A DNA stretch of 59,255 nt, the filler included, from Sanchytrium tribonematis (taxonomy: Eukaryota): assembly GCA_018985235.1 (NCBI GenBank). It is 6 parts of 6 records of this genome, joined end to end, with 100 filler letters (N's around TTAATTAATTAA, not from the genome) between each part and the next. Parts side by side here need not be neighbours in the genome. Positions count along the whole stretch, not along the records: positions 49,582 to 59,255 come from JADGIG010000323.1; 5 more parts are not named here. One strand, 5' to 3'. Positions 11,818-59,043 of this stretch are shown here, in pieces. Under the pieces are notes generated by a model. The model did not search any database. It saw nothing but the letters and a program-made list of their open reading frames with translations, and was not told the DNA's origin. The position numbers were made by a program, and so were the translations under genes. Position 1 is the stretch's first letter. Every line of letters begins with the position of its first letter.

Positions 11818-11948
11818 GGGTGAGAGAGGGCGATGTGCGTTTTTTATATGGATCGGCTTAGTCTCATTGGGTAGAAAATTAGAATGTTCTAAGATTTAGC
11901 GAATCAAATGTGGATATGACAAGCCATCCAGAGAGTTGTGCAGCTCAT

Positions 11949-13145: not shown

Positions 13146-13298
13146 TGGCAGAGGGGTATTACTTCAATTTATTTCAGCACTTTATCATTTATTGGACCAT
13201 CAATTGAATTTTCTAATTTTCAATCCAATCAAATGATATAAATGAAAGCCATCAAAATTTAGCAAAAAAGACGCGAATTGTTACTTTTTTACTTTTAT

Positions 13299-14282
13299 TT
13301 ATTGATCAATAGACCCCAATAATTTGGTCTTTTTTCCTCCATTTCTACTAAATGGTGATTTAGTAAAGATATAAACCACAATTCCAAGATCCAATGCGAC
13401 TTTAATCATTAAAGATAATGTTAAATTGATGGAATATTGAGACATTTGGAAATGTGTCACCAAATGGTTGATTGTGGATGAATTCATAGGTTTGCTACTA
13501 TCCATAATGTGAGACTGGATATAAAACGAGGTTTGGGAGAGTCTGGTAGATGTCAAAATTTGTAGATTTCGAGTGACAACTAGATTAAATTTAAATACTT
13601 GATTTCTGTGCATCAGTTTCTAGTGCCGTGGTACTCGATTGTGCCAATTTGTTGCTTGATATTGTATAACTCGTTGTTTCTTGCATCGTGAAAATGGATG
13701 AAACAAATGGTAAATCCGTAGATTTCTCAAATGTGCTGAAATATGCAGATTGCCAAGTACTCATATCCATACTCGTGGTCAATATAGTAGATGTTTGTAC
13801 TGCAATTGAATATGTGGTCGAACCAGCAAGTGAGTAAATGCTGTTTTGTGCACAAATACTTGGAGATGACAAATTGGATGATCCTTTTAAAGGATTCTGA
13901 TCAATACTGCATCTACCTTGTAAAAATGCAGAATAATCTGTAATATTTAATGCTGTGAATTGTAATAGGCTTATTTGCACTAAATGTCCCAGTAAATTGA
14001 TTTAAAGAGATGTAAATGGTAGTTAATGTGTTTGGCATAATTGGCAAATCTCCAAAGAATAAATTGTTGTTGAGACTCAATTGAGTGAGAAATGTTGGCA
14101 AATTTGTGATTAATCCAGATAATAAATTGGATCCACAATATAATACCACAAATGATGGTGGTAAATTAGGAATATTACCAGTAAATTGATTCTGTTCTGC
14201 ATAAATTCTAGTCATTTGATTTGGGATGGTTGTAGGGAGAGGACCTTTAAAATCATTGCCAGTGATATCCAAAACACGTATG
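13299..14282 (-). pseudogene. LRR cell-surface protein, copy 3: 5'-truncated, two frameshifts
   Basis: Three ORF fragments align to copy 2. About 20 nt are missing with a frameshift near 13960, there is a second shift near 13600, and homology stops at about 14282 where the LINE begins. Confidence 0.8.
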
Positions 14283-14618
14283 AAACCTGGAGTCGACATT
14301 TTGCGCAACTTTTTGGAAAAATGGCAAAACAAATTTGCTTTAAAAGTTCGTTATTTGCTCGCATGGTGGATTTATTTAATAATAAATATATTTTTATTGT
14401 TAAAACTCTCTTTAAATAATATTAACACTGAAAAATCTAAAATTCAAACTTTTAATATTACCCAATTTATTTTGTCTATCCAAAGCAATTTTATAGAATG
14501 GCGTCAAGTTTTGCCATCATGGCACAAAACACATCCATGTGACACTATTGATTGCCAAAAATGGCGTAATAACACATCTGAAATAACAAATAAATACAAA
14601 TATTCCCACTTTTACAAA

Positions 14619-19857: not shown

Positions 19858-19957
19858 NNNNNNNNNNNNNNNNNNNNNNNNNNNNNNNNNNNNNNNNNNN
19901 NTTAATTAATTAANNNNNNNNNNNNNNNNNNNNNNNNNNNNNNNNNNNNNNNNNNNN
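19858..19957. other. Artificial contig linker
   Basis: N44-TTAATTAATTAA-N44. Confidence 0.97.
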
Positions 19958-19985: not shown

Positions 19986-21190
19986 GTGTGCGAGCAAAAA
20001 GCATTGTTCGATGTCAAAGAAGCCATAAGCGAAATTCTTTCATTGTATTCAGATATCGAAGTGCCCTATGATTTTTTCGATGAAGACAGCCCTGAGACTT
20101 TCATTAAGCAGAAGAATCCACGCAGTATTAACACCAGCAACCAAATTATAAAAGAAAATTGGAGTGTAGAAAGAATACAAAAAATATTACAATCAAACGA
20201 TTTTGTGCTAGATAAAAATTCTGAAGAGATTATTAAGGTAGAGCTAATCCCAAAAGTAGACGTACCTGACGAGCCGCGCCTAAAACCAAGAGCAGTTGGT
20301 TTATTTGATATTGTTACCGCAAGACCTGCTACCAAATCCCTAGTGTTGCCACATTTTATTTTAAGCACAATTACCTCAATCTCTAGCATTTATAAAGGAA
20401 TTTCGTACTCAACTAGTATGATTTATTCATTTTTTAAAAATACTCCAATATTAATGCATTCAACCACCCTTGCCACATCAGTGGTTATTCTGGCAAGATT
20501 GTCAGATGTATTTACCTTTTTGAAAAAATCTGGAAATGTGCTTTTGCAGTTATCTGGGTTAATATACAATGTGACATTCAAAATATTTGTTGATGTTGGA
20601 TCTTCTGTCACTGGTTTCCTGTCTCCTGGGTTCACTACCATAGGCAAGTCTAGCGTCAAGCCTCTCTATGTTCCAAATCTTAGTATAACAAAAGCTCCAA
20701 ATTTTGATCTACCGGATACCAGAGCTCCCTTAGTCTTTCCGAAGCGGGACCTCTCGTACTTTGAGAAGTCTTACGGATTTCTACAATCTGCGATAATTCC
20801 AGCTAATTACATATATGGCGCGGCCATTGGCATTTCAGGTATTGTTTATCTCATTTAGTATTCGGAACCTTGCTATACTGCTTTACTGATATTCAGAGGA
20901 CAGTCCAGAGCACTGTAATTCAGAAGTCTATTGATTACATCAATCATCTTAATCTTTCTGATTTGTACTCGCGGAGGCTTGCTGGATTGAGTGAAAGATA
21001 CATACTAGGAAAGGTAGGAGAAATAGACCCTAAAATTCATCATTCCTTGATACAAAAATCCAACAAATTAAATCAATCTCTCAAAGAATGTCACTTGCTA
21101 GGTGATAAAATTCTTGCTTTATGTAGTGAAATGGAAAGATTAGATTCATTGATGCAAGTAGTTAGTAGCATCGATATTAATGAGCACTAG
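19986..21190 (+). CDS. Hypothetical membrane/coiled-coil protein (probably 5' partial); ORFs joined by intron 20839-20858
   Basis: Splicing gives a continuous hydrophobic helix YIYGAAIGISVFGTLLYCF. Confidence 0.55.
20839..20858 (+). other. 20-nt spliceosomal intron (GTATTGTTTATCTCATTTAG)
   Basis: GT-AG, in-frame join, same CTCATTTAG 3' consensus with A at -6. Confidence 0.7.
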
Positions 21191-21288: not shown

Positions 21289-21921
21289 ATGAATTCACAG
21301 CTAGGACATTTTCTGGATATACGGTCTGTAGAAGAGTGCCAAAAGCTGGGAACTATTTTAAATTACAATCAAGCTGCATTTGAATGTCGTGTATATGTTA
21401 ACACAAACATTGATAAAGAATCAAATTGCATGTTTGAAAAGCGACACTGGAGCGTTATATCAAATATGTATGGTTATTCCACTTCGAATGACTGTGAACT
21501 TGTTTGTAAAAATTTATTAGAATGCTCATTTTTTAGAAATGAAACAGGCTGCATATTGTATAATGCAAATACCACCTACGTCAATGATACATCCTCACTC
21601 TCATATTTCAAAATTTGCAAACAACCAGATGCTTCACCCAAAGAACCAGAACTGGTCCCTTCAAATACTAACAATATTACAATAATTATATCAGTTTGTG
21701 TGGTAGGTGGGCTTTTGTTGCTAGTAATATTATTCTTTATTTTGCTGCATAGAACCAGGTCAAGGCGCGATAAGCATCCAGAATTGCATCAAAATTCAAT
21801 AGAAAACATAATAGATAAGGAAGTTGACGATACCCTTGCACTTAATTCAGACTACAGTTCAAGTGCATCTGCCTCCGAGAACTTTTATGGTTTGAATCAT
21901 AATAGGTCTGGCCCCATTTAA
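21289..21921 (+). CDS. Single-pass membrane protein with Cys-rich (PAN/apple-like) ectodomain
   Basis: C-x3-C...C..F....C.LY pattern, TM IIISVCVVGGLLLLVILFFILL, basic stop-transfer. Confidence 0.55.
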   Translation: MNSQLGHFLDIRSVEECQKLGTILNYNQAAFECRVYVNTNIDKESNCMFEKRHWSVISNMYGYSTSNDCELVCKNLLECSFFRNETGCILYNANTTYVNDTSSLSYFKICKQPDASPKEPELVPSNTNNITIIISVCVVGGLLLLVILFFILLHRTRSRRDKHPELHQNSIENIIDKEVDDTLALNSDYSSSASASENFYGLNHNRSGPI

Positions 21922-22792: not shown

Positions 22793-23680
22793 ATGTTTGT
22801 TATGCTAATATTCACCTACACATTTTCGGTATATTCTGATCTTGCGAGCCCACAATTATTTGATTTTAAATTCTTAAAAACAGATGCTCTACCTGAAAAT
22901 ACCATACCATATAAGACTGGTAGGAGGCAGTTCTACTGTTCGATTCCTCCTAGTCCAGCCAGTTCCAAGGTATTAACACCTAGAGAAGACTTAGATTACT
23001 CGGCCTTTCTTCAGGTCAGCAAGTGTCTTTACTTGAATTCAGGATGGTGGACATACGAGCTTTGTCCATCAACAAGTGAAGATTCGATTCGACAGCTTCA
23101 TTTAGACAACAACGTGGAAACTGACGGGTATACTCTAGGTAAATCAAATCAAAAATACGAATTGCAGGAACGCAATGGGCAATACGTAATTATTAAAAAT
23201 TTTAATAGAGGAACTTTGTGCGATGTAAACCAAAAACCACGAGAGGTAAAAGTTGAATATAGCTGTTTTTTGGATAACGAAAAAATTACTTTAACTAACC
23301 TGATGGAAGAATCAACTTGTTTATATCGCGCAACGGTTCACGTGCCCCAGTTATGTGGTGTAGAAGGCTTTCAGAAAAAAACCAACACAAACGACATTAC
23401 TTGTTATTATCTAGAAGACAAAAAACCCAAAGTTGCTGATAAAGCCAAAGCTCATGATATTAAGGAAGAAGATGATGGCGAGATGGAAGGTACTGAAAAT
23501 GTTGCTGAGGACGGTCAAATAGACTTAGGGCAACTTTCTAGTTTAGTCTCAAAGTTGATGGACCAAGCTGATTTTCAAATGGTTATGGTGGACAACGAAA
23601 ATTTGAATTTGAAGCAAGAGTTGCAGAAATTGCTAAACAAGAAGAAAAAGAAAGAGAAGAAGAAAAAAGAGGAATTGTAA
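22793..23680 (+). CDS. YOS9: OS-9/Yos9 ER lectin (MRH domain)
   Basis: Signal peptide, CLYLNSGWWTYELC, IRQLH, GTLCDVNQKPREVKVEYSC, EESTCLY, PQLC, C-terminal KEEL. Confidence 0.85.
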   Translation: MFVMLIFTYTFSVYSDLASPQLFDFKFLKTDALPENTIPYKTGRRQFYCSIPPSPASSKVLTPREDLDYSAFLQVSKCLYLNSGWWTYELCPSTSEDSIRQLHLDNNVETDGYTLGKSNQKYELQERNGQYVIIKNFNRGTLCDVNQKPREVKVEYSCFLDNEKITLTNLMEESTCLYRATVHVPQLCGVEGFQKKTNTNDITCYYLEDKKPKVADKAKAHDIKEEDDGEMEGTENVAEDGQIDLGQLSSLVSKLMDQADFQMVMVDNENLNLKQELQKLLNKKKKKEKKKKEEL

Positions 23681-23682
23681 AT

Positions 23683-25353
23683 TTAATAAACAAATTCTTT
23701 TTGAATGTTTGCTCTTTCCACCCACCAATCTTGTCTGCCTCGTATGTAATCAAAAAGTTTTAAAAGACCTCTGGATACCTCTCCAAGAGACCAGATACCA
23801 AGCCTTTTCAATTTCGTAGACCTTAGCCTTTCATCTTGGTATAGCTTAAATAGGGACAGCCCTGCAGCTTTCGAAATAGAATCTAGTAAATTAGAATTGT
23901 ATATGCTCCAAGCACCATTAAAATCAGCGGAAGTCATCGTAAAAGCCGAGACAAATGAAATATTAGTATGGTGATTATTGAGAAATGCGACTAAGGGTCG
24001 AGCAAAAGTTTTCCACCCAAAAATGTTACTCATATTATTTGGCATATCGGCTCGCAAGTCTTTAATCTTAAGAGACATTGTAAAGTTTAATCCAAACTTA
24101 GAAAACATGGGCTGGGATGGAATGTCATCTACCTCATTAGGAATCCCAAGTTTTTGAATCTGCTGTTTGGTCAATGATTTTAGATCTCCAACAAAAGTGT
24201 GTTCTGGATCATTAGGAATATCTATCACAGCACTCATATCGATTGTTCCCTCATTTATCCAACCTAATGGCCCGGTTGCTCCATAGTTGAACAGATCAAT
24301 GGGTAAATTATCAATTTTAATCTGCGATTTTTGAAATAACACGTCGCTACTCTCTATCTTGTTTAAACTAAATAGACAATTGTCGTACATCCCACTTATA
24401 GAATCACTTTTGAGCAAATCATACACGATCCAATTTTTCCTAAATTTTGCAGTGGATCCATGGAAAACATCAATTTTGATTGGCCTAAAATCTTTGTATA
24501 AAATATTTAAAGACAAATCACTAACTTTTAAGCCATCAATGACTATGTCTTCGCTATGAGGTTCAAATTTCATAGAATTTTCAACATTGTAATCGACATA
24601 TCTTTTATCTATTTCGCCCCGTATGCCCTTCAGTTCGGCAAATTTGATCAGACCTTTTCCAAATATAAAATTCCACAACGAAAGCTTCACTTTGACTTCT
24701 TTGAAATTCAAATTGTATAAAGTGTGGTTGACGTTGCTGTAATCAATTTCTGCAGGCTGATTCTCAAACGGAGGAACTTGACTTTTGTAGTAATAGTGTG
24801 ATTTTACATTTCCTTCGTCTGGCTTTGACTTGGATACTTGGATATCTTTGAAAATAATAAAACCTTCCCTGAGATTAGGAATAATTGCAGATTCGAAAAT
24901 CACCGTTGCATTCAATATTTTAGTGATATATTTGCCAACGAGGAAAGCAATGAGTTCTTGAAATTGCAGAGAGTTCAAGACAATTAGTAATAGAGATATA
25001 AATGAGGTAGTTCCGACTAACAAGAAAAAAGAATGTGATAAAAACAGCCAACTAAACATGGCCAAAAAATCATCTGTTGACCACCTTCGTTTTTTCTTTA
25101 AAAAAAATATAAATCGATTCCTATAAGAATTTTGCTTTTGATAATTTTGATGGCTGTGAAAGCTCCTTTTTTGAATCATATTTAATGGTTCTACTTTGAT
25201 CAAAGAATTGAGTGGTTTTGCTCTAAAGCAAGTATGAAAATTTAGCGATGCAATTGGCAGTGTCTTCTGCAGAATATGATTTGTGTACCAAAAATTAGAA
25301 TAAGTTGCTGCGGATTTGATCATCCGATTCCTTATTATATGCCTCAAAAGCAT
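23683..25353 (-). CDS. MDM31: Mitochondrial distribution and morphology protein Mdm31/32
   Basis: RRWSTDDFLAMFSW, GTTSFISL, NSLQFQE, VIFESAIIP, SGMYDNCLF, LKRLGIWSL. Confidence 0.9.
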   Translation of the reverse strand: MLLRHIIRNRMIKSAATYSNFWYTNHILQKTLPIASLNFHTCFRAKPLNSLIKVEPLNMIQKRSFHSHQNYQKQNSYRNRFIFFLKKKRRWSTDDFLAMFSWLFLSHSFFLLVGTTSFISLLLIVLNSLQFQELIAFLVGKYITKILNATVIFESAIIPNLREGFIIFKDIQVSKSKPDEGNVKSHYYYKSQVPPFENQPAEIDYSNVNHTLYNLNFKEVKVKLSLWNFIFGKGLIKFAELKGIRGEIDKRYVDYNVENSMKFEPHSEDIVIDGLKVSDLSLNILYKDFRPIKIDVFHGSTAKFRKNWIVYDLLKSDSISGMYDNCLFSLNKIESSDVLFQKSQIKIDNLPIDLFNYGATGPLGWINEGTIDMSAVIDIPNDPEHTFVGDLKSLTKQQIQKLGIPNEVDDIPSQPMFSKFGLNFTMSLKIKDLRADMPNNMSNIFGWKTFARPLVAFLNNHHTNISFVSAFTMTSADFNGAWSIYNSNLLDSISKAAGLSLFKLYQDERLRSTKLKRLGIWSLGEVSRGLLKLFDYIRGRQDWWVERANIQKEFVY

Positions 25354-25535: not shown

Positions 25536-27696
25536 ATGCAAAATTGTTTGATTGGTATTGAACCCGACCATTTAATATTCGAGCAACAATTACTTAGATA
25601 CCCGCTAGATGTGAAGACTTGGTTCAGATACATAGAATATCAAGCAGAATTGCGACCTAAATTATTTTTATATTTGAGAGCGTTGTCAAAATGTCCTTTT
25701 TACTACAAATTATGGTTCAAATATTTACAATTCAAACTGGAAATATTGCCAGAGACTCCACTTTACCAAGACTTGAATTCAATTGTCATAGATTTCGAGC
25801 TCTGTCTAATATTTATGGATAGCAAACCTGTTATTTATAAGCTCTATCTTGAATTCTTAATATCTAAATTGCCGTACAGAAAATTACTTATTATGGAAAC
25901 ATTTGATAAGATGCTAAAATTGTTGCCATATCCTTTGCATAAACAATTTTGGGATATTATTTTAAAATTTGCTGAAAATATTGATAATCATTTGGCAGCG
26001 ACTTTATATAAGCGTTATTTTCTAACCCTTAACACCATTGAAGAAAAGCAGAAATATTTGAAATTACTGCTTGAATTGGATGTTAGAGAAGGCGCTCAAA
26101 TTTTTTTTACTTTCATGAAGCAACACCCTGGTTCTCTACATTTTATAGAAAAAATCGTCTGCGAGTATGCCTCCGAATTAGGGGATTTTGTAGATGTTTT
26201 CGCTATTTTATCTGGCATCATCAAATCTCATTTAAATTACAAAGTTGTTAATGCTTTAGCTAGATTTCAAATTCTAGAAGGTGACATTGAGGGTGCAATA
26301 AGTACTTTCGAACGCTCTTTGAATGATGTTGAGTCGATCTATGACGGAATATTTATATATGAGCAGTACTTGCTTGTTTTGGAACAATATGTCGAGATTT
26401 TGTGCGAAGAAGAATCTGATTTATCGGGCTTATGGATGGAGAAGTATAAATTTGTTCTGGAAAGACACCAGATAATCATACAGAGCATCTTGACAAGACA
26501 ATTTCCAAATAGTATCGAAATATGGAGAAACTACATCAATCTTCAAAAGATGCTTAAGAAACCACTAAAACAAGCATACCAGATGGCATTACATCAAATT
26601 GATCCCAAGCGCGCTACGCCACCTAATCAGTTGCAAGTTTTCTGGAAAGAGTATGCTGATTCTTGTGGCGCTGAAGTTTATAATGAGGCAACTCAATTCA
26701 AATTTCAGACCATGGGAGAACTAGAAGAAATGTACATCATTAAGGCTAAACATTTTCATGATGAACCTTTAAAGGCAAGAGAAATTTATGAGGAAGGCAC
26801 CAAAAATTGTAAAGGATTTAAAATTTGGTATTCCTATCTAGATTACGAAGAAAAGTTAGGATCTGATAAAGTCATACAGACTTACGAGGCCTGTATCAAA
26901 TCAAAACAGGCCACTCCTCAAATTTTTATGAACTACATTGTGTACCTACACCACAACGAAATGTATGAGGCCATGTTTTCCATCTTTGAGAGAGCCGTGC
27001 AAGCATTTAGAAAATTACAGTTTTCTTTCTTTGAATCTTATTTGCCAATTCTTGTTCAATTGCATAAGGGTAGCAAAATTGAGAGAATTCGCCACACGTT
27101 TGAGAATTGCCTCAAATTGTTACAAGATCAGGATTGTTCAAAGTTTCTTAATTGGTATGCGCTTTATGAAATTGAATTTGGAATGATACAAAAAGCCATC
27201 CACATTTACGAAAAAGGGACGAAATTTTCCGGGATCAAAGACAAGCTTTCTATTTATAATGAATACATTAAAAATACGATTGAGTATTGCTCCGTTAATG
27301 AAATTAGAACTGCGTATACCTCCGCCATTGAAAGTTTACCAGACGATGATGCCAGGAAAATTTGTTTTGAGTTTATTAAATTTGAATTAAACCTTGGAGA
27401 AATTGACAGGGTTCGAGAATTATACAGTTATGGCAGCCAGTTGGCCAACCCTAGCGTAAATTATTTTCATTTAGCTTCATGTAGACTTTTGGGAAAATTA
27501 TCAATCGTTCGAAGTGAAATTTGGTAATGAGCTCACTTTTAAAGAGTTTTTAAGACAAAAGAAAGCAGCATTCGAACTTTACGATACGGAAGAGCAATAT
27601 TTGAAGACAGAGCTACTTAAACCTCATAGTCAATCAAATATCAATCTAAATCCTCTCCAAAAACTCGAAAATACTGTTTTATTTCATAAAGCATAA
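25536..27696 (+). CDS. SYF1: Pre-mRNA splicing factor Syf1/XAB2 (HAT repeats); intron 27456-27474
   Basis: FEQQLLRYP..VKTWFRYIE, ATPQIFMNY, KIERIRHTFE, LGEIDRVRELYSYGSQ. Splicing gives DFWENYQSFEVKFGNE. Confidence 0.9.
27456..27474 (+). other. 19-nt spliceosomal intron (GTAAATTATTTTCATTTAG)
   Basis: Restores the conserved Syf1 FW..FEV..GNE motif. Confidence 0.9.
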
Positions 27697-27697
27697 A

Positions 27698-28751
27698 TTA
27701 TTTTTTGGCACTTATTAACCACCAATAAACACATTCATCGTCCTCAAACGGCACTTCCAAAGTCATTCTTATTGGTCTGCATATTCCCTCAACATAAACG
27801 ATTTGTCCTTCCAAAGCAGTCAAATTTCTTTTCAAGGTGCTAACGTCAAACATTTTTAATGTTTTCAGAAAGACCCTGAATTTTTCGATACGAATTAAGG
27901 ACATGTAATTTTTAAATATTATTCTTATCCAAATCATAACCATGATGCCCTATATTAATACGGATTACGAGCAGCGGCCAGTACCAAAAAAAAGACAGTC
28001 TGTTACCAAGAAGGAGAGGTAAAACAGCGAGAACTACAACTAATATAACAAGAATCATAAACATTATCTCCTGGGCCCATCCAGGGTTCTCATGAAATGG
28101 GGCCAATTTTCTAACTAAGCTGGATTGAGCTGAGAATGGTAATTTAAAATTTTTAGTGGCATTAGCTACACCCAGGTCGACGTCAGCTTCCTCATCTCTT
28201 CCTTCATAGCCTGGAGGCATGTGCAAAGTTTCTATTAATGTATAATTAGGTAAAGTGTCGCTTCCGGAACCGTAAAGTCGTTGTCTACAATCTTGCGCTG
28301 TCTCCCGGACCACTAAAAGTAATCCTTGCAACATGTCCAAATTAAATCCAGGAAGAAGGCTCCGCTTTCTTGGAATGGCTCCAATTTGGTATTCTCCTTT
28401 ACTATTTTTTTCAACTTTGCCAATAACGGCAACACGCTGATTTGGTATAATTTTCAACTGGCCAAACCTATCACATCCTTTGGCGAAGGGTATAGATATG
28501 TTTTTCCAGGTAATAGAGTATTTGAGGCAACTTTCTGCTGGTTTTACATGGGTTACAGTTGAGTTATTGCAAATGGAAGAATTTGGTGCAACCTTTATCG
28601 AATCTCTTTCATTCGATAATTCAAAATCTACTGCACAAGAAAAGGTTGAATCTATCACGTTCCTTTTCATTTGCATCACAAAATTTGAGGGGTTTCTCCA
28701 TCTCCATCCAAGTCGTAAACGAATAGGTCTTTGTAAATCTTCACCAATCAC
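27698..28751 (-). CDS. Hypothetical membrane protein; intron 27950-27968; start uncertain
   Basis: Two ORFs join in frame to give YWPLLGIMVMIWIRII (TM). Confidence 0.5.
27950..27968 (-). other. 19-nt spliceosomal intron (GTAATCCGTATTAATATAG)
   Basis: GT-AG, in-frame join, A at -6. Confidence 0.8.
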
Positions 28752-29762: not shown

Positions 29763-29862
29763 NNNNNNNNNNNNNNNNNNNNNNNNNNNNNNNNNNNNNN
29801 NNNNNNTTAATTAATTAANNNNNNNNNNNNNNNNNNNNNNNNNNNNNNNNNNNNNNNNNNNN
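29763..29862. other. Artificial contig linker
   Basis: N44-TTAATTAATTAA-N44. Confidence 0.97.
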
Positions 29863-30067: not shown

Positions 30068-31815
30068 TTAATACCCCATACAAGTAGTCATATTAACAAA
30101 AGAGTAGCCCAAACCTCCAAAAAATGTTTTCAATGAAGCAAGATTTCCACCGCAATATGTATAATCACTGCTACATTGAATAGAATGTCCAAAAATAGTA
30201 TCCTGAACTTGTCCTTGAATGTTTGCAAGGACTGCCGCAGTAGATGTAAGTCTCCAGTCACCACTATCTATATCAAAATACACAGCAGTATATCCATTTG
30301 TGTTCCAACCAGTAATGCTGTTGCTATCGTATCCGTCAAACGCAGGTCGAATCCATTTCACAGATTTTAGCAAATTGTTTGAGGAGCTAATCAAATTGTT
30401 GATTTGAGTGTTCAAATTTGAATTGAAAGTATTTACAGTGTATCCATTGCTGGTCTTCCAACTATCTTTTAATCCAATTTCATGTCCCGCACTAATAATT
30501 GATCGATAAGTTCTGGATCATTCGTAACTGCTGCACTACTTACAAAAAATGTTGCCTTGATGCCATTATTAGACAATTGAGTCAACAATGTTGGATCATT
30601 AGCGGTGTTGGGTCCATCTTCAATAGTCAAGGCAATGTGTTTTGGATTTAAACAAGTCGAGTATAAATCTGGTTGAGGGTTTTGAGACTGATATTTACCA
30701 CTTCCACTTTTACAGTTGACAGAACCACCATTCACAAGCTGATTGCCAGGCAAAGTGTTGCTGGTAGCATCTCTTTTGGTCAAAAAAGAGTCTTTTTGCA
30801 AACAATGTAAATTTGAGTAGCAATGAGTATTTGTTGTTCCACAATATCCATGAACAGAGCAGCAACCTTGAGTACATGGCTTGTAAAATGTTCCACTCGT
30901 ATTAGTGGTCAGACAAGTCGTTGTTGCGGTACCTGGCAAAATAGTAATATTTTTGTACGAGCCCATGGCAATATCCATCCATTGGTAACCTCTGTAGTCT
31001 AAAAATCTATTCAATCTTCCAGACATGCGATGCAATAAATCACTTCCTGTCATCATGATTCCATTTAATCCTAAAGAAGCCTGAGTGATATTGTGATAAT
31101 AATATTCCAAATCTGTCATATCACTAACAATTAAATTGGGTGTCATGACATTCAAATTTAATGCACTCGCAGTTAGCCTCATAGATTCATTATTGTAATT
31201 AGCCATGATATACGTAGGATACTGGTGCGTCAAATTAAAAATGGTTGATCTATCTTGGTTAATAATACTAGCGATCTGATCTGCTGACTTGAAGTCAAAC
31301 TCGTTGTAGTATTGAAGACCAATACTGTAATTATAATAGTGAATTAAATACAAAAGTGGATTAATTTGGTTTAAAGAATTGGCATAAACAGATGGACTAA
31401 TTAAAAAAGAGCAATTCAAATTGTATTGATTACACTTGTAAATCATGTTTGGATTACTATTAAATTGAACAGCCAAATGGATTTCATGCGATTTAGAGGT
31501 TAATAAAGGGTAATTTTGATTAACCTTGTCTTGGTTGCAATATGCATCACCACTTCCACAAAACCCATTGGAACTGCAACATTGTGAGTTTGGGCAGTCG
31601 TTATTGCCATTAATTGGATTACAAATACCATGTACATTACCACATAATCCAAATGCAATTTGACATCCGGAGCCACAAAAATTGATTGAAAGACCGCAAT
31701 AATTTCCAGATGAGCAACAAAGTTCTGGTCCGCAAGGATTGTTATTGGCTGCAGCGCCACATCTCTGGGCAAATCCCATCATGAAAAAAATTGAGATGAT
31801 TGAGAATTTCATCAT
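30068..31815 (-). CDS. Secreted CBM18 (hevein) x3 + degenerate polysaccharide-deacetylase (NodB) domains; 1-nt frameshift at about 30499
   Basis: Signal peptide; three CCSxxxYCG/FCG hevein motifs; IALTIEDGP, KATFFV, and after the frameshift IISAGHEIG, WIRPAF, DSGDW. Confidence 0.75.
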
Positions 31816-45249: not shown

Positions 45250-47128
45250 CTATAATTCCACGACATGATTTGCAGGAAATAGTCCAGATTGATCATCTAT
45301 ACTTCCCTGCCACCAGCCTTCATCAATTTTATTAATTTCAGTGATCAAATCTCCAACTTTAAAAGAAATTTCGTTCGACTCTTGTGCATTATAATCATAA
45401 CAGGCTTTAGCGCATAAACTTTCTGTAACTATATTAGATAAAAGCACCATAAGATATTGGAAACATTCCTTGTTTGTTGTTAATTTCTCCCAAAGACCAA
45501 CCTTCGTCGATTTTTTCAACAATAAACACGATTTCACCCTCTCTGAAGGATATTTCGTTACTTTCTTGAGCATTGTAATCAAATAAAGCAATTGATTTTG
45601 TTTTAGATTTGAGGACAGGCGACATGGGCTTTTCTTGTCCCACTTCTTGCACAAAATTTCCTGGAAACAGACCAACATTTTGACCAACAATGCCCTCCCA
45701 CCAATTGGTGTCAACCTTATTAATATTGTAAATTTTGTCCCCAGCCTTAAAGCTAATCTCATTGCTTTCAGCCGCGACATAATCGTACAGTGCTACAGCA
45801 TCATGATCTTTTTCCAAGGCGGTAGGAAGCGCCGCAATTTCTTCACGTTTAGGCAAAACTGTTTGAAAAGGTTCTTCTCTTTTTGGTAACATTGGCTGGG
45901 AATCTTGATCAGGATTTTCACGTTTTGGTAACGGTGGCTGGTTCTCTTCTTTTTTAGTAAAATAAGCGGCACCTTCATACATCGATCTTTTTGGTTGCAA
46001 TGGAGTTGGTTCTGATATATAATCTTTTCGTTCATAAGAATCGTTTTTAGACTCGAATTTTGATCTCAAGTCATTCAAAGAGCCTGACGCAGATTTCTGA
46101 GAAACATTCTCCTGAGAGGACGTTATATCCATCTGTTGAAATTTAGCCTTTAAACTAGAAGTTGATTTAATATTATCTAGTTCTTGTCTTCGAATTTCAG
46201 ATTCTGTCAATTTTTTTTCTTGAGCAGGTTCAAAATCTAGTGTGGTAGTTGGCGGTTTTTTACGAAGTTGCTCTAGCTCTTGTTTTCTTAAATCAGATTC
46301 AGAAAGTTTAGTTTCTGGTTCTGGAAAATAATTTGCAGCCGCTTGTAAGGATTGACCACGTAGCTCCTCAATTTCTTTCCGATGGTCCGGATAAAGCTGT
46401 TTTGGAGGAGATGGTGACCTATTTCTATTCTGCTCATCAGCCTTTTGAGCGGCAATCATTTGAGCTGTAGTACTATTACTGGAAAACTCTCTGCTTAATC
46501 TTTGCGGGATTGTTGGCTTTGTGGGACTAACTGAATTGTTTGATTTTTGAGGAACTATCGGCACGAATTTACCTGGCCGATAATCAAATACCGCTGGATG
46601 ACTTGTTTCTTCCCGCTTTGGTATTTCTGGAATATTGCTGCGTTGAGGAATGTTTGGGGCTTGGGACCTCGTTGGAAGATCTGGTTTTGTGGGTTTTGTT
46701 GGAGAAGTTGTAGAGACAGTGCTAGTATTTGCAAGATTATATTTAGCCCCACTTGCCTTGGTTACCAAAGATTCCAGATACTTGTAAGTTATGTCTCCTT
46801 CGCTCCTTGCATTCATTACAGCGTGGCAAGTCACTAACGATTCGACTTCACCCACCAAACCTGCAAATCTACCTTTAAGTTGAGGAGGAGCAGAATCGCC
46901 TAACCAGTGAATTAGAATTGTCTTACGAAGATCATTAAGCTGAACGCCAAGAATGGCGTGACTTCCTTTTGACGTATTAAAGCATTCTAAAAAATCTTCC
47001 TCATCGAAAGTTTCTGCCTTATCGCTAAAATTCAAATACAAATTTTTGTCATATGAATATATGATATAAGAAAGGTCTCCTGATTGCACCTTTTTAAAGT
47101 CGCTCATAAATTCTTGAGGAATAGGCAT
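45250..47128 (-). CDS. ABP1: Abp1/drebrin-like actin-binding protein (ADF-H, Pro-rich, three SH3); intron 45429-45447
   Basis: N-terminal ADF-H ([17 protein letters not shown]) and three ALYDY-type...W...GxFP SH3 units. Confidence 0.8.
45429..45447 (-). other. 19-nt spliceosomal intron (GTGCTTTTATCTAATATAG)
   Basis: Gives FPISYV and links to the third SH3. Confidence 0.88.
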
Positions 47129-49481: not shown

Positions 49482-49581
49482 NNNNNNNNNNNNNNNNNNN
49501 NNNNNNNNNNNNNNNNNNNNNNNNNTTAATTAATTAANNNNNNNNNNNNNNNNNNNNNNNNNNNNNNNNNNNNNNNNNNNN
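49482..49581. other. Artificial contig linker
   Basis: N44-TTAATTAATTAA-N44. Confidence 0.97.
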
Positions 49582-52039: not shown

Positions 52040-53861
52040 TTATTTCTTCTTTCTAAGGAAATCACTGGATAATAGCTGTTCTACGTCCGGCCGAATCGAA
52101 TCATCAATTGAAAATCCCAATTGCAGAAAATTGGTGGCTGCTGTTGAAAGATTTTCAGGGATAGTTGGTCTTTCGAGCTTACTTAATTTAAATAAAGCCT
52201 CAATCTGACCAATACCGGGACCATATGGATTTTCAGCGGAAAACATTTCGACAATGACGCAAGCAACAGCCCAAACGTCAGATTTAGCAGAGTAATGAAG
52301 CCTAGTAACTACTTCAGGAGCCATCCAATAAACAGAAGATTCCAAGTTCGAATTTCGAAGAAACCTTTCGTCAATGAAGCTATTATTGTGCTTTTTTCTT
52401 TCATTCATGGCATACCCAAAGTCTGACAATTTGCATTTTCCTTTGTCACCTACCAATATATTTGTTGACTTGATGTCCCTGTGAATAATGTGCTTTTTAT
52501 GCAGATACCTGAGTCCGCTAAGAATTTCATTCGTAAATGATACTACTAGCTTTTCAGGAAATTTGCCATAATTTTCAATCATTGTTTTTATGCTACCTAG
52601 ATTAGTCAGATTTACCACCTGGGACGTATTCCAAAAATAATTGTAGCTTGTTTTTCTCTATGTCGAACCCGTAATATTCAATAATATGATCGTGCTTTAA
52701 TTTTCGAAGATACATTGACTCTTTCTGAAGGATTTCGATAGCCTTAGCTCGGACAAGCTCATCAGAAATTTGCTCTTCTAATTCGATTTCTTTGATGGCA
52801 ATCATTTTTCCACTTTTAGAGTGCATGCCCAGGTATACTGCAGCAGAATTTCCTCTTCCCAACAGCTTACCCTTAACAACGGCTTCAACATCAATAAGGT
52901 TAGGATCAATTTTCATCCCTTTGGACAAAACACGAAATGATGTTCCAATGAATACAGAATCTGTAGCACTAGAAACAGTCGAATCTGTTGTATCATTAGA
53001 TTTTCGCTTTGGTGGTGTGATAGACGAAGTTAGCACTTCTTCAGATTCTGTGATTTCCGATTTAGCCATAATCTCTGATTGAGATTTTGATAACAATAGA
53101 TTTTTTCTTCTAACAAACATTGACTTGTCAGTTTTTGGATCAGAGAGCATTTTTGCAAACAAAGATTCAGTCAACTCTAAAACTGATCCTTTATCTTTGA
53201 TTAAAAATGTATAGTCATTTTGATCTGTGATTTTAAATTTTTCAAAAATTAACTTGCAAGCCGCACTAAAAGTCCAGTCTTTATCAATTACGACTTTTTT
53301 ATAGTGCTCATCTTCTCCGTAAACGGTGATTGCGATTGGAAGGATATCTTCCTTACTAAAATTTAAGCTTCCAATTTTTACCGATTGAAAAGGTGAAGCC
53401 AACACCTCCAATAATTTTTTATCTGGGGATAGAGGCTGGGATCTTGATCTTTTTCGTTGATTAAACATAGTTCCCACATAAGAATTATTGTCATCGTATA
53501 TTTGTATAAAATTGTGAAATACTGCATCGTGTTGATATAATTTCGAATTTTTCAAATCTTCAAGTGACTGAATAGGATACCTTATGTCGAACGATAGATA
53601 ATCTGCAGGAATAATACCGATTTTATCATTCAATTTACACAAATAATTTGATTTATCAATAAAGCATAAAATGCTAACAAGATCACCGATTTGAGCATTA
53701 ATTTCACCCTTCAATAGACCTCGGAAATCGTTGTTAATATAAGCCATATTGATGCCAAATTCTAAAGAATTATTGGACGTGTTCGGAGACTTCTTGACTT
53801 TACTGAAGAAAGTTGTTTCCAATAAATTTGTAAAGCTTGTGCTATTTTTAAGTTTCGACAT
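52040..53861 (-). CDS. STE11/MEKK-family MAPKKK with SH3-like and RA-like N-terminal domains; intron 52597-52615
   Basis: IAIKEI, LFLEYVPGGS (after splicing), HRDIKSTNIL, DFG, SVYWMAPEVV. Confidence 0.85.
52597..52615 (-). other. 19-nt spliceosomal intron (GTAAATCTGACTAATCTAG)
   Basis: Splits EYVPG|GS; contains a GACTAAT branch-like sequence. Confidence 0.95.
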
Positions 53862-54001: not shown

Positions 54002-55196
54002 ATGAGCACCAATTGGACTTCTCCTAAGCTTGTTCCTGCTCGTATAACCCGTGAAAACGAAGAGCCGTCTTCATTGTTGGATTATTTTTCAGTACTTAAG
54101 CCAGCTAAAGCACCCATTCGCGAGCCTAGTGGGGATGACGAAGTTTGGAATATAAAAGAGCCCAAAGAAAGGAAGCCCTCCAGCGCGTCTGAGTCACCAA
54201 TTGTCAACAGCCCAGTGACTCTTATCGAGAAACTAAATAATTTAATAACCTCCGAGAGTTTGAACATACAAGATTTAAGGAAATTATGTTGGAATGGAAT
54301 TCCTACCAATAAACTTAGAGCTGCCATTTGGCCAATATTGATCGGTATGGTTCAGCCAAATGACCCAGAGAAGCGAGCCGCATTTATTATTAAGCGTAAA
54401 AATGAATATATCGAGCAAAGGATCCTGACTTTAAATGAAACTCGAGATGCAAATACGTGGCACCAAATAACAATTGATATGCCAAGAACTCACCCCGGCA
54501 TACCTTTATATCAAAAAGAGTCTACCCAACAGGCCATGTTAAGAATTTTATATGTTTGGTCGGTCCGACATCCTACAACAAGTTATGTTCAAGGTATTTT
54601 ACACTAAATTAGGAATGAACGATTTACTTACACCATTCTTTAGCGTTTTCCTCTCTCAGATTATCGGACAAGAAAGCATCAATGATTATGATCCGGCTGA
54701 TCTAACAGAGAGTCAGATGGATGACTTGGAATCACTTTGTTATTGGTGTCTTACAAAATTGATTGAAAGAATACAAGATCACTATACCTACTCTCAGCCA
54801 GGAATACAAAAGCAAATACTTTTACTTAAGGAGCTGATCAAACGAGTTGAGCCAGCATTGGTAAAACATTTGGAACAGGAAAATGTTGAGTTTTTACAGT
54901 TTGCATTTCGATGGATGAATTGCTTGTTGATTAGGGAATTTCAGTTGAGTCAAATAATAAGAATTTGGGACACTTATCTTAGCGAAGGGAAAGATTCATT
55001 TTCCGTATTTCATTTATATGTTTGTGCATCATTTTTACAAAATTATAGGGATAAAATTTTAAAAGCTGACTTTGTTGGTATTATGCAGCTCTTGCAATCT
55101 CCGGATACTAAATCTTGGTCAAATAGGGATATAGAAAGCATGCTTAGCCAAGCATTCGTGTGGAGTAGCCAATTCGCTATGTCTGGGCACTTATAA
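54002..55196 (+). CDS. GYP1: Rab GAP Gyp1/TBC1D22; intron 54594-54612
   Basis: LRKLCWNGIP, QITIDMPRT, spliced YVQGMNDLLTPF, LQFAFRWMNCLL. Confidence 0.93.
54594..54612 (+). other. 19-nt spliceosomal intron (GTATTTTACACTAAATTAG)
   Basis: Splits the catalytic YVQG|MND motif. Confidence 0.95.
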
Positions 55197-56543: not shown

Positions 56544-57210
56544 TTAAAAAACTACTATCAGCGCAAAAATAGCGTACAGTAAAAACAATGGATATGCCAC
56601 AAGTATCCTCATGTGCTCCATATGAAGAATGTTGACAAAAATACTCGAGCTAGAAAAAGTGCACCAAAATATTGACAAGGAGGTTAGAACACCTGTTATT
56701 AAGCCAGAGCTGAGCCCCAAAAATACTGAAATTAAGGACAGAAGCACCATGGGCAGTAGACAATAGCCAATAACAGATGAGGTTTGACTCAAAGAAAGAC
56801 CGCTTTCACTCATCAAATTCATTACTGCATACATCACCAAGCATCCGATTGCTGCAAATCCATAGACGTAACTAAATTGTAGTTTGCCGCTCTACATAAA
56901 TGTGAAAAACCATCAATAAAAATATTCCAAACAAGAATGCAAAGAGGAAAGGACCAGCTAAATCAGTGTCATCCATCAAATGTGAATCGACTCTTTTAAA
57001 TGGATTGAGAACAGTAATAGTTTTTGTCTTGATGTGACTAAAGTTCACACCCAATTCCGTTAATAAGCCTTCTTCGCCTGGAAACCCACCAGTAGTAAAA
57101 GCAGATTTATAGTCTATAGGTATATGTTGAGGGTTATATGGCAAATCATTTTGCTGAGGTCTGGCTTGAACATTTTGATACTGGTAATTGCCATCAGAAT
57201 AATATTCCAT
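56544..57210 (-). CDS. YIP1: Yip1/YIPF5 Golgi-ER transport protein; intron 56892-56910
   Basis: [18 protein letters not shown], spliced [25 protein letters not shown]. Confidence 0.93.
56892..56910 (-). other. 19-nt spliceosomal intron (GTTTTTCACATTTATGTAG)
   Basis: Restores the [14 protein letters not shown] motif. Confidence 0.92.
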
Positions 57211-57365: not shown

Positions 57366-59043
57366 ATGACACTTCCATTTGCAACTCGAAAGGACAAAGT
57401 GTCCATAGATAAAGCCTATCAGCGACTGCAAAAATGGATAAGTGAAAGTTTAGACAATATCAAAGTCGAACTTCAACGAACGTTATATCCACTTTTCGCA
57501 TATTCATACCTTAAATTAATTGCGAGTCAGAATACAGAGGTGGCAAAGAAGCTGATGGAATTGGCAAAAATGGATCATAAAATTGACGAGTTTTTAAGCA
57601 TTAATGACCAGCAACATTTGCAAGAAAGCGGATTGTTTGCAAGTTGGATGGACAAAAAGTACGAGATTCAGATATCTCGATTCGCATTTGAATTACTTAT
57701 AAACTTTATGGATGAACACTCAATGATATTTTTTTTGACTATTTTAAATAGCAATATTAAAGTCAATATTACTGATAAGCCAAAAATGGAACACGATGCA
57801 GATGCAAGTCATCAAAGTAAAGTGTATTTGGGGGCTTCAATTCTTCATGAAGATGAAATGTTGGCTAAGAAAATTAAATACAAGGATGAAGAAGTCTCAA
57901 ATCCATTCGACCAGAAACAAAAGCAATTAGAATTGCAACAGGACAGGCCCGCTTACGATCGAGTTCCGCAGCCGCCATTGACTCATTTTGATTTAGAAAA
58001 TGAAATAGAAGAACTTAGAGATTTAAAAAGAATGATGCAAGTTACGAATAGGTATTTACCTTCCATTTGTTGCTACACTCTTCATAATACAAACAACGAA
58101 ACTAGCTGCGCAAAGTTAAACGATGATATCACAATCCTGGCTGCTGGTTTCAGAAAATCAACCATTAAGCTTTGGAGTTTAAATGATTCAAAATTAAGAG
58201 CGCTTTTATCGGATCCTGACCCAAATGCCACTGAAATTGATCAAGTTTTGGATCAAGGCACCACTGAAAGGGAGCTTGTAGGGCATTCAGGTCCTGTATA
58301 TGATATTGAATTCAGCAGGGACAAAAAATTTATGCTTTCTTGTTCACAGGATGCGTCAAGTAACTATTTTTTATGTAGTTAGATACTGGTCGTTACAGAA
58401 TTATTCGAATATGTGCATGTACCAAGGTCATCAGTACCCAGTTTGGGATATTGATATGGGAAATCAGGATGTCTACTTTGTAAGTGGAAGTATGGATGGA
58501 ACTGCAAGATTGTGGACCACTGACAGAGTACAGCCACTGAGAATATTCGCTGGACATTTGAGTGATGTCGATTGTGTAAAATTGCACCATAATTTGAACT
58601 ATGTGCTTACAGGAAGTAGCGACCGTACCTGTAGACTCTGGGATAATTTAAATGGAGAATCTGTGAGACTTTTTACAGGACATGAGGGGCCGATTACAGC
58701 TTTAGAATATTCTCCAGATGGTAGATTATTTGCCTGCGCGTCCCACCACACAATATACGTTTGGGATATTGCAGAGTGTAAAATTTTGACTAAATGTCAA
58801 GGCCACAAAGATATTATAACAACTCTTGCTTTTGATAGAGCTGGTAGTTTACTCACTAGTGGATCCATAGATGGTAGTGTATGCATTTGGGATATGAATA
58901 TTTCTTCAGGAAATGCTTTAACTTTACCACTCAAAATATTATACACTAAAGCAACTCCACTGTTAAATTTAATGTTTACAAAGCGAAATTTACTCATGGC
59001 TGTCGGGTCTTTTTGTCCAGAGCTACTCAAATATGATAAGTAA
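57366..59043 (+). CDS. TAF5: TFIID subunit Taf5; intron 58360-58378
   Basis: NTD2 (WISESLD, LYPLFAYSYL), LPSICCYT, LVGHSGPVY, GHQYPVWD, PLRIFAGHLSDVDCV. Confidence 0.95.
58360..58378 (+). other. 19-nt spliceosomal intron (GTAACTATTTTTTATGTAG)
   Basis: Restores the WD repeat SCSQDASIRYWSL. Confidence 0.93.

What the first reader, a model, noticed from the sequence alone, without database searches (positions are those of the whole stretch)
52597..52615. Branch point fused to the 3' splice site: invariant A at -6 in 14 of 14 introns
Seen: all introns end in Y-T-H-A-H-N-Y-A-G (e.g. CTAATCTAG, TTCATTTAG, TTTATGTAG, CTAAATTAG). The 20-nt intron keeps this 3'-anchored register. The donor is weak beyond GT(A) and there is no room for a polypyrimidine tract. 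Inference: the -6 A is the branch adenosine, giving a lariat loop of only about 14 nt. U1 and U2 could hardly bind such an intron at the same time, which implies a remodelled spliceosome. Stentor tiny introns also have a conserved A six nt from the 3' end, so this would be convergence.
Basis: partly seen in the sequence, partly recalled or inferred. Interest (0 to 1): 0.82.

Follow-up and report, generated by a model that had tools for sequence, protein, structure and literature searches.

The report
Tiny 19-base introns in a fungus
A very compact fungal genome carries introns only 19-20 bases long, among the shortest known, and the invariant A six bases before their end is likely the branch point, an arrangement already seen in the ciliate Stentor and the yeast Yarrowia.

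Summary
52597-52615 (minus strand) is a 19-nt GT-AG intron in a Ste11-like kinase gene. I found 14 such introns (13 of 19 nt, 1 of 20 nt) from open-frame joins and protein-domain continuity, without using position -6. All 14 have A at -6. T at -8 is 14/14, Y at -9 is 14/14, T at -5 is 12/14 and T at -3 is 13/14.

Among 283 other GT-N15-AG 19-mers, A at -6 is 30% (Fisher p = 1.3e-7). Each intron is a GTAWWT donor, a 4-nt spacer and YTNAYNTAG. Splicing restores conserved proteins exactly (VPS4, ALS, Syf1 and others). The public proteome holds only the unspliced fragments.

In two relatives, the read-through peptides at the same Syf1 site back-translate to the same 3' motif.

That -6 A is the branch adenosine remains an inference. 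It rests on the yUnAy context and on Stentor and Yarrowia precedents. No RNA, lariat or snRNA data could be reached, so the "remodelled spliceosome" idea is untested.

The gene content is fungal, so convergence with Stentor holds. My searches found no report of 19-nt introns in fungi. This scan earlier noted 25-38-nt introns in other fungi.

The parts
52597..52615 (-). The finding: 19-nt intron GTAAATCTGACTAATCTAG in a Ste11-like MAPKKK gene, phase 1
   Evidence: Pkinase 3-84 | 76-263; 426 and 184 open codons; junction LEYVPG(G)SIKTMIENYGKF
2411..2429 (+). 19-nt intron GTATTTATTTTTAATTCAG in ARPC1 (the only CAG acceptor among the 14), phase 1
   Evidence: 340 and 34 codons; exon 1 aligns to residues 2-334 of the 370-aa ARPC1A; the 34-aa exon 2 is WD-like (weak, E 0.004)..
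4128..4146 (+). 19-nt intron GTAGTTATTCTTTATTTAG in a long-chain acyl-CoA synthetase gene, phase 2
   Evidence: AMP-binding, then AMP-binding_C; junction IFKLAQ(G)EYIAPEKIEGVY. The 16- and 31-nt alternatives share the same 3' end.
13580..13598 (-). 19-nt intron GTATTTAAATTTAATCTAG in an LRR membrane-protein gene, phase 1
   Evidence: 134 and 92 open codons. Frame-join support only.
20839..20858 (+). 20-nt intron GTATTGTTTATCTCATTTAG in a gene of unknown family, phase 1
   Evidence: 293 and 109 open codons. Frame-join support only. A at -6; position 14 from the 5' end is C.
27456..27474 (+). 19-nt intron GTAAATTATTTTCATTTAG in the splicing-factor gene Syf1, phase 0
   Evidence: (HAT_Syf1_C profile 96-315 | 316-368), (relative P0253 runs through the junction uninterrupted)
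27950..27968 (-). 19-nt intron GTAATCCGTATTAATATAG in a membrane-protein gene of unknown family, phase 0
   Evidence: 275 and 83 open codons. Frame-join support only.
41363..41381 (-). 19-nt intron GTATATCATTTTCATATAG in VPS4, phase 1, splitting the Walker A motif GPP(G)TGKS
   Evidence: on chain 5uie_A, exon 1 ends at residue 175 and exon 2 starts at 177; the split codon supplies 176..
43486..43504 (+). 19-nt intron GTAAATTAGATTTACATAG in acetolactate synthase, phase 0
   Evidence: TPP_enzyme_C profile 1-30 | 31-151. (SGGLGTM|GFGLPAAIGAK is continuous in homologues).
45429..45447 (-). 19-nt intron GTGCTTTTATCTAATATAG in an Abp1-like ADF/SH3 gene, phase 1
   Evidence: a third SH3 domain in the downstream frame; 565 and 58 codons
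47572..47590 (-). 19-nt intron GTATTTTGTATTTATTTAG in a DUF7886 gene, phase 0
   Evidence: (profile 10-32 | 33-144)
54594..54612 (+). 19-nt intron GTATTTTACACTAAATTAG in a RabGAP-TBC gene, phase 1; the only one of the 14 with A at -5
   Evidence: RabGAP-TBC 2-93 | 87-216; junction SYVQ(G)MNDLLTPF
56892..56910 (-). 19-nt intron GTTTTTCACATTTATGTAG in a Yip1-domain gene, phase 0
   Evidence: 116 and 115 codons; Yip1 domain in the downstream frame
58360..58378 (+). 19-nt intron GTAACTATTTTTTATGTAG in TAF5, phase 1
   Evidence: junction SCSQDAS(I)RYWSL, a WD repeat. Chosen over three other frame-joining GT..AG stretches at this site by the WD motif, not by the intron motif.
9880..9898 (+). Probable 15th intron GTAACTTTATTTAATTCAG at the end of an EF-hand gene; its downstream exon is cut off by the end of piece 1
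   Evidence: (best-scoring 19-mer outside the set, 14.6 bits). Not counted among the 14.

Best explanation
These are 19-20-nt GT-AG introns whose removal restores conserved proteins exactly, and their invariant A six bases before the 3' end is likely the branch adenosine, which would give a lariat loop of 14 nt and a 5-nt tail.

Shown: each intron is a donor hexamer GTAWWT, a variable 4-nt spacer (5 nt in the 20-nt intron) and a 3' nonamer Y-T-N-A-Y-N-T-A-G. So 15 of 19 positions carry signal: 6.8 bits at the donor and 11.0 bits at the 3' end.

Inferred: the nonamer is a branch site (yUnAy) fused to the acceptor. It would be read by the usual U2-type machinery, that is branch-site binding protein and then U2 pairing around a bulged A. 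The first AG, five bases downstream, would then be used in the second step, as in Yarrowia lipolytica and Stentor.

The genome is intron-poor in this sample, roughly 0.3-0.4 introns per gene. That fits the known tendency of intron-poor lineages to evolve rigid 3' intron structures. How U1 and U2 share a 19-nt substrate is not known here.
For: (1) Real introns. Frame joins peak sharply at 19 nt although all lengths are equally common. Junctions are exact: VPS4 residues 175/177 on 5uie_A; ALS, Syf1 and DUF7886 abut at profile positions 30|31, 315|316 and 32|33; conserved motifs are restored in ACSL, MAPKKK, TBC and TAF5; ALS and Syf1 homologues run through the junctions without a gap.

(2) Constraint. 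A-6 14/14 against 30% in 283 background 19-mers, p = 1.3e-7. T-8 14/14, T-3 13/14 and T-5 12/14, while -7 and -4 vary freely. Motif hits are 16 against 5.0 +/- 2.2 expected.

(3) Discrimination. With the -6 column left out of the scoring matrix, several stretches score as high as true introns but have T or G at -6 and no frame support, for example 2567-2587, 41767-41787 and 16535-16554.

(4) Branch-site context. Y-T-N-A-Y with the A at -6 occurs in 13/14. Elsewhere that pattern is scattered over -13 to -10.

(5) Conservation across species. At the window's Syf1 intron site, two relatives (52-54% protein identity) have ORF-called proteins that stop just inside the site. Back-translation of VNSILI* allows only a 21-nt GT..TAG intron before the stop, with Y-9, T-8, A-6, T-5 and T-3. 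Back-translation of VIFTKIDMY* allows a 19-nt intron with C-9, A-6 and T-3.

(6) Precedents. The Stentor branch A is at -6 (PMC9505925, passages). Yarrowia has ACTAAC-AC-AG; Trichomonas and Giardia anchor the branch site two bases further out (PMC2483917, section 9).
Against: No RNA evidence: no RNA run holding this DNA was listed, so splicing is inferred from DNA and proteins only. No lariat mapping. The sample is small: 14 introns in 59 kb, with no whole genome held.

Only 2 of 14 match the stricter fungal CTRAY. Every intron has at least one other A at -13 to -7. A simple pairing score against the canonical U2 GUAGUA (recalled, not read from this organism) ranks -6 first in 9, tied in 1 and second in 4 of 14.

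The relatives' introns are back-translations, not DNA. For one of them a 30-nt alternative with T at -6 is not excluded. Two frame breaks in the window have no intron of this type; if the 28-nt GT..AG at about 13950 were a real intron it would have T at -6.
Confidence: 0.68

Rival explanations
1. The introns are real, but the -6 A belongs to an extended acceptor signal used in the second step or read by a protein. Branching would happen at another, variable upstream A (positions 7-13), or at -7 in some introns.
For: Every intron has other As between +7 and -7. A at -7 occurs in 6/14. The U2-pairing score prefers an upstream A in 4/14. T-3 and T-5 are as conserved as the A, so the whole nonamer could be one acceptor element.
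Against: No other A position is conserved (at most 6 of 13). An upstream branch would make loops of only 7-10 nt inside or next to the donor hexamer. The invariant pair T-8/A-6 matches the two most constrained branch-site positions elsewhere (PMC8531310, abstract). Yarrowia's unambiguous ACTAAC box sits in the same register (PMC2483917).
Confidence: 0.17
2. The shared motif reflects recent common descent. The introns would be copies of one short element that spread recently, so the invariance says little about function.
For: Intron positions turn over among close relatives. The ALS intron is absent from two relatives at 79-80% protein identity, one of which seems to carry an intron 33 codons downstream. 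The Syf1 intron is absent from a third relative. Introns share on average 12.3 of 19 positions.
Against: Invariant and freely varying columns alternate: -8, -6, -5 and -3 are fixed while -7, -4 and the spacer vary. No two introns are identical (at most 16/19). The orthologous Syf1 intron keeps the fixed columns, while the other columns, and in one relative the length, differ between species whose Syf1 proteins are only 52-54% identical.
Confidence: 0.08
3. These are not spliceosomal introns. They would be assembly or amplification artefacts, programmed frameshift sites, or DNA removed before transcription.
For: No RNA evidence. Two other frame breaks in the window look like plain indels, so the assembly or the genes contain some errors.
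Against: All 14 begin GT and end AG and are 19 or 20 nt long. They share donor and 3' motifs, interrupt conserved motifs at exact codon positions, occur in 5 of 6 separate pieces, and are mirrored at the Syf1 site in two other organisms.
Confidence: 0.03

Closest known systems
Stentor coeruleus 15-16-nt introns (PMC9505925, passages read)
   Same: GT(A) donor and (T)AG acceptor. About 76-78% A+U. The putative branch A is fixed six bases from the 3' end, leaving a 5-nt tail. The length distribution is very narrow. The commonest Stentor intron reads as donor hexamer plus YTNAYNYAG with no spacer.
   Different: Stentor is a ciliate and this is a fungus. These introns have a 4-nt spacer, so the loop is 14 nt rather than 10 nt. 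The density is much lower here. Stentor's snRNAs and spliceosomal proteins have been inventoried; none could be examined here.
Branch site anchored to the acceptor in Yarrowia lipolytica, Trichomonas vaginalis and Giardia lamblia (Irimia and Roy 2008, PMC2483917; abstract, sections 9 and 15, passages)
   Same: A fixed branch-to-AG distance and no pyrimidine tract between them, in intron-poor genomes. In Yarrowia (ACTAAC-AC-AG) the branch A is at -6, as here, and Yarrowia is also a fungus.
   Different: Those species have a strong WCTRAY box. Here only 2/14 match CTRAY, and the consensus is the looser yUnAy. Yarrowia introns are long (median 204 nt), and short Trichomonas introns are about 25 nt.
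Chlorarachniophyte nucleomorph introns (PMC4035089 and PMC2483917, passages)
   Same: The same modal length: 19 nt in 68.8% of Bigelowiella and 49.1% of Lotharella introns. GT-AG ends and a very compact genome.
   Different: Nucleomorph introns are reported to show no branch-point signature and a donor limited to GT(A). They are about ten times denser. Gene content there is algal housekeeping, whereas here it is fungal and includes a retroelement.
Miniature introns of Microsporidia such as Encephalitozoon cuniculi (PMC2483917 and PMC6349667, passages)
   Same: Holomycota, reduced genome, few introns, and a conserved CTAAYTT-type branch motif.
   Different: Those introns are 23-52 nt with a strong GTAAGT donor, and the short ones are reported as poorly spliced (<20%). 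Here the introns are 19-20 nt, G at +5 is absent (0/14), and splicing efficiency is unknown.

Membership tests
U2-type (GT-AG) spliceosomal introns | GT at the 5' end and AG at the 3' end | tested here: met
   14/14
U2-type (GT-AG) spliceosomal introns | Precise removal restores the reading frame and the conserved protein sequence | tested here: met
   Exact junctions for VPS4 and for ALS, Syf1 and DUF7886. Motif continuity for ACSL, MAPKKK, TBC and TAF5. Three introns rest on frame joins alone.
U2-type (GT-AG) spliceosomal introns | Spliced mRNA observed | not testable with these tools
   Only one DNA run holds the stretch
U2-type (GT-AG) spliceosomal introns | Lariat formed at a branch adenosine paired by U2 snRNA | not testable with these tools
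   No RNA data. No snRNA gene in the window. No whole genome held.
U2-type (GT-AG) spliceosomal introns | The organism encodes spliceosome components | tested here: inconclusive
   One component, Syf1, is in the window. The rest of the machinery lies outside the data.
Acceptor-anchored branch-site introns (Yarrowia / Trichomonas type) | Fixed distance from branch site to AG | tested here: met
   The candidate branch A is at -6 in 14/14, including the 20-nt intron. The branch identity itself is inferred.
Acceptor-anchored branch-site introns (Yarrowia / Trichomonas type) | Strong WCTRAY branch box | tested here: not met
   CTRAY in 2/14; YTNAY in 13/14
Acceptor-anchored branch-site introns (Yarrowia / Trichomonas type) | Intron-poor genome | tested here: inconclusive
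   14-15 introns against 46 ORFs of at least 150 aa in 59 kb. The genome-wide figure is unknown.
Ultra-short introns of Stentor type | Narrow length class below 25 nt with A at -6 and a 5-nt tail | tested here: met
   13 of 19 nt and 1 of 20 nt; A-6 14/14
Chlorarachniophyte nucleomorph genome | Algal housekeeping gene set with about 2-3 introns per kb | tested here: not met
   Best named hits are fungal. MDM31/32, chitin-binding plus deacetylase, and a LINE-like element are present. About 0.25 introns per kb.
U12-type introns | Long conserved donor (ATATCC-type) and a TCCTTAAC-like branch box (both recalled, not from a call) | tested here: not met
   The donor is GTAWWT and the branch context is YTNAY

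The most novel reading that the evidence does not exclude
An early-diverging fungal lineage has independently shrunk its introns to one 19-nt unit: donor hexamer, 4-nt spacer, and a branch site fused to the acceptor. These would be the shortest introns in Opisthokonta. The unit is so small that U1 and U2 cannot sit on it together in the textbook way, so the intron would be recognised by an altered assembly path. The introns have been missed by ORF-based annotation, so the public proteomes of the lineage are fragmented at every intron.
Probability: 0.3. Interest if true: 0.85.

Novelty: new member of a known kind. Interest (0 to 1): 0.62.

Why it matters
If the pattern holds genome-wide, this would be a fourth independent origin of introns under 20 nt, after heterotrich ciliates and chlorarachniophyte nucleomorphs, with myxozoans and dicyemids close behind at 22-27 nt. 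It would be the first in fungi. It also reaches both the 19-nt mode of nucleomorphs and the -6 branch register of Stentor and Yarrowia. That recurrence points to physical limits of the spliceosome: a 5-nt minimum from branch to acceptor, and roughly 14 nt for the lariat loop outside ciliates.

It would give a second, fungal system for asking how donor and branch site are recognised when they are 7 nt apart.

There is a practical consequence too. The public proteome of this organism contains the unspliced halves of at least six genes in this window (10 of 10 ORF fragments looked up were present verbatim, 7 of them cut at introns). Gene counts and orthology calls for the lineage are therefore distorted, and a simple 19-nt motif scan could repair them.

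Tried and rejected
- Whole genome: none is held, so there is no genome-wide logo, snRNA search or protein inventory.
- RNA evidence: no RNA holder was listed; one DNA run, probably the source, holds the stretch.
- Rfam on the window: no match at gathering thresholds or at E up to 1. No tRNA.
- Relatives' DNA: a metagenome scan with the ALS exon gave 80 loci, the best at 59% identity and most about 45% and bacterial. None is a close relative.
- U2 snRNA of this organism: a conserved U2 motif found no viral contig. It found 86 stretches in genome contigs; all 20 that I checked by Rfam are U2 genes. The organism's own U2 could not be read from the data at hand, so U2 pairing is untested.
- Codon-usage scoring of exon flanks was too weak to find introns; frame joins and Pfam continuity were used instead.
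- A search of protein representatives for more relatives met a full queue twice.
- Nucleomorph origin: considered because of the 19-nt mode, and rejected on gene content and intron density.
- Ciliate origin: rejected. TAA and TAG act as stops and the homologues are fungal.
- The 33-nt and 28-nt GT..AG stretches at the LRR frame break and the 38-nt one at the deacetylase break: rejected as introns, because they cut conserved residues or lack both motifs.
- Literature: 9 searches found no report of introns under 20 nt in fungi. 'Introns of 19 nt' phrases retrieved only nucleomorph papers. A paper on two compact, roughly 35% GC zoosporic fungal genomes predicted proteins by ORF calling, and its only use of 'intron' is in a reference title (PMC8371127, passages). 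I did not test, and do not claim, that the window belongs to that lineage. Its supplements were not opened.
Full report
What the window is. The 59,255 bases are six pieces of about 9.9 kb joined by N44-TTAATTAATTAA-N44 linkers. Genes are cut at the joins, so the pieces are separate loci. GC is 35%. ORFs of at least 150 aa cover about 52 kb. TAA, TAG and TGA all end long frames (34, 9 and 3 of 46). The gene content is fungal. DAHP synthase and acetolactate synthase have only fungi among their best named hits, at 62-64% identity. Pfam finds MDM31/32, chitin-binding domains with a polysaccharide deacetylase, a Ste11-like kinase with an RA domain, and an intact LINE-like ORF. Two or three unnamed relatives exist at 72-80% identity for these enzymes. 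The lineage within fungi was not determined.

The observation. The reverse complement of 52597-52615 is GTAAATCTGACTAATCTAG. It interrupts a kinase domain whose Pfam profile continues in the next frame, and removing it gives LEYVPG(G)SIKTMIENYGKF. To avoid circularity I collected introns without looking at -6. Among 1986 GT..AG stretches of 17-23 nt, each length occurs 263-305 times. Those joining frames open for at least 100 codons on both sides are 9 of 19 nt, 1 of 20 nt and 2 of 22 nt (one is a variant of the finding's site; the other, 52647-52668, was not examined further), and no others. Pfam profile continuity added the Syf1 and DUF7886 introns, where read-through frames stay open. Where several GT..AG pairs could join the frames (ACSL, MAPKKK, TAF5), I chose by protein homology; in ACSL and MAPKKK the alternatives share the same 3' end. 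The result is 14 introns, 13 of 19 nt and 1 of 20 nt, spread over 5 of the 6 pieces.

Counts and chance. A-6 is 14/14, T-8 14/14, Y-9 14/14, T-5 12/14, T-3 13/14, A+3 12/14, T+6 12/14 and G+5 0/14. Positions -7, -4 and the spacer vary. In 283 other GT-N15-AG 19-mers, A-6 is 86 (30%), giving Fisher p = 1.3e-7. Thirteen matches are the introns and one is a probable 15th intron at a piece end. Leave-one-out matrix scores of the true 19-mers are 8.5-18.0 bits, against a background mean of -3.3 (sd 5.5). When the -6 column is dropped from the matrix, decoys that score as well as true introns appear. The top ones carry T or G at -6 and join no frames. So -6 A separates introns from look-alikes.

Anatomy. 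Each intron is GTAWWT (6.8 bits), then 4 variable bases (5 in the 20-nt intron), then Y-T-N-A-Y-N-T-A-G (11.0 bits). The introns are 78% A+T, against 65% for the window. Phases are 0, 1 and 2 in 5, 8 and 1 introns. If the intron is retained, 11 of 14 frames meet a stop in or just after it.

Are they real introns? On yeast Vps4 (5uie_A), exon 1 aligns up to residue 175 and exon 2 from 177, with the split codon supplying 176, inside the Walker A motif. ALS, Syf1 and DUF7886 abut at profile positions 30|31, 315|316 and 32|33. ALS homologues read SGGLGTMGFGLPAAIGAK straight through. ARPC1 exon 1 covers residues 2-334 of a 370-aa homologue, and the 34-aa second exon supplies a WD-like end. Three introns (LRR, the 20-nt one, and a membrane protein) rest on frame joins alone. 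There is no RNA evidence.

The public proteome lacks these introns. All 10 ATG-to-stop ORFs I looked up exist verbatim in a public proteome source; 7 of them are ORFs cut at introns in five genes, including both halves of TAF5 and the truncated ALS, and the other 3 are whole single-ORF genes. The introns are therefore not modelled there.

Relatives. At the window's Syf1 intron site, two relatives (52-54% identity) have ORF-called proteins that end 6 and 9 residues past the junction, with tails VNSILI* and VIFTKIDMY*. A third relative (48%) runs straight into the exon-2 homologue, which confirms the junction and shows that the intron is absent there. Back-translation allows, for the first tail, only a 21-nt GT..TAG intron before the stop. 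Leu-Ile-stop reads Y-T-N-A-T-H-T-A-G, so -9, -8, -6, -5 and -3 all fit. The second tail allows a 19-nt intron with C-9, A-6 and T-3 (and R at -5); a 30-nt alternative would have T at -6. This is indirect, but it is what purifying selection on the fixed columns predicts, and the 21-nt case again keeps the 3' register. The ALS intron is not shared: one relative is uninterrupted, and another stops 33 codons further on with a tail that fits a GTATHT donor. So intron positions turn over within the group.

Mechanism. The two invariant internal letters, T-8 and A-6, are one base apart within Y-T-N-A-Y. This is the general branch consensus yUnAy (PMC2367711, search listing only). In cattle and human the T and the branch A of nnyTrAy are the most constrained positions (PMC8531310, abstract). 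No other A is conserved. Yarrowia lipolytica places an unambiguous ACTAAC box so that its branch A is also six bases from the 3' end, and Trichomonas and Giardia place it two bases further out (PMC2483917, section 9). Stentor's 15-nt introns have their putative branch A at position 10, again -6 (PMC9505925, passages). I therefore read the nonamer as a branch site fused to the acceptor. Branching at nt 14 would give a 14-nt loop and a 5-nt tail. This step is inferred. A pairing score against the canonical U2 box (recalled) ranks -6 first in 9, tied in 1 and second in 4 of 14, which is only mild support.

The claim that U1 and U2 cannot bind together, and that the spliceosome is remodelled, could not be tested. 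For Stentor all snRNAs and most core proteins are reported as present, with differences only in some branching factors (PMC9505925).

Unresolved or against. The sample is small. There are no RNA, lariat or snRNA data. Two frame breaks are not explained by this intron type. A third LRR copy shifts frame near 13916-14001, where the only GT..AG that fits is 28 nt with a poor donor and T at -6, and it would delete a repeat. The deacetylase gene shifts by one base near 30490 and has lost its histidine motif. Both look like indels or pseudogenes.

Comparison and novelty. Irimia and Roy reported that short-intron lineages (Paramecium, the Bigelowiella nucleomorph, dicyemids) lack branch signatures, while intron-poor lineages evolve rigid 3' structures, and that species with both traits follow the intron-poor rule (PMC2483917, section 15). 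This genome, with about 0.3-0.4 introns per gene in the sample, fits that rule. The modal length equals that of nucleomorph introns (PMC4035089). A 2026 survey lists ciliates, Microsporidia and Dicyemida as the known exceptions below about 30 bp and puts the animal minimum at a 22-bp median (PMC13644364, passages). My searches found no report of introns under 20 nt in fungi. Earlier notes of this scan describe 25-32-nt introns in Rozella and about 36-38-nt introns in Neolecta on other DNA (not checked here).

Verdict. The finding is a new member of a known kind: ultra-short introns with an acceptor-anchored branch site. It occurs in an unexpected lineage and has been overlooked by annotation.

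Noticed in passing
window 9909-10008, 19858-19957, 29763-29862, 39657-39756, 49482-49581: The window is not contiguous. Six pieces of about 9.9 kb are joined by N44-TTAATTAATTAA-N44 linkers, and genes are truncated at the joins (for example a DnaJ C-terminus at 9961 and an alcohol dehydrogenase lacking its N-domain at 39757).
   Followed up: yes
window-wide; e.g. 42073-43491(+), 57366-58379(+), 58300-59040(+): A public proteome source holds the unspliced ATG-to-stop ORF fragments verbatim (10 of 10 looked up). Intron-containing genes are therefore split or truncated in the public protein set. A sister proteome carries ORF-caller style names on assembler node contigs.
   Followed up: yes
43486-43504(+) and proteins P0131, P0132; 27456-27474(+) and P0253: Intron positions differ among close relatives. 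The ALS intron is missing in two relatives at 79-80% identity, one of which seems to have an intron 33 codons downstream. The Syf1 intron is shared by two relatives and missing in a third.
   Followed up: partly
30440-30520(-): The chitin-binding / polysaccharide deacetylase gene changes frame by one base just before the expected metal-binding motif, which reads AGHEIGLKDSWKT and has lost the later histidines. It is probably a pseudogene or an assembly indel.
   Followed up: partly
13302-14350(-), beside 10297-11895(-) and 11952-13163(-): A tandem family of three LRR proteins, each with a Ser/Thr-rich stalk and a membrane anchor. The third copy has a frame break near 13916-14001 that corresponds to a deleted repeat, besides its 19-nt intron.
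   Followed up: partly
15640-19857(+): An uninterrupted ORF of about 1400 aa with endonuclease and reverse-transcriptase domains, so a LINE-like retroelement that is possibly active. It contains one intron-motif look-alike (15973-15991) whose removal would break the frame.
   Followed up: no
5640-5680(-), 21906-21921(+), 23677-23686: Intergenic spacers are extremely short. For example, the stop of the RPAP3-like gene at 5666-5668 is followed in the same frame by the next gene's ATG within about 15 bases, and several neighbouring ORFs overlap or abut. Transcripts probably overlap.
   Followed up: no
L081-L160 (genome contigs): Many bacterial MAG records hold tandem arrays of eukaryotic U2 snRNA genes; all 20 loci I checked were confirmed by Rfam. 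One such contig also carries 5S rRNA and another a tRNA. This indicates host or eukaryote contamination of those bins.
   Followed up: partly
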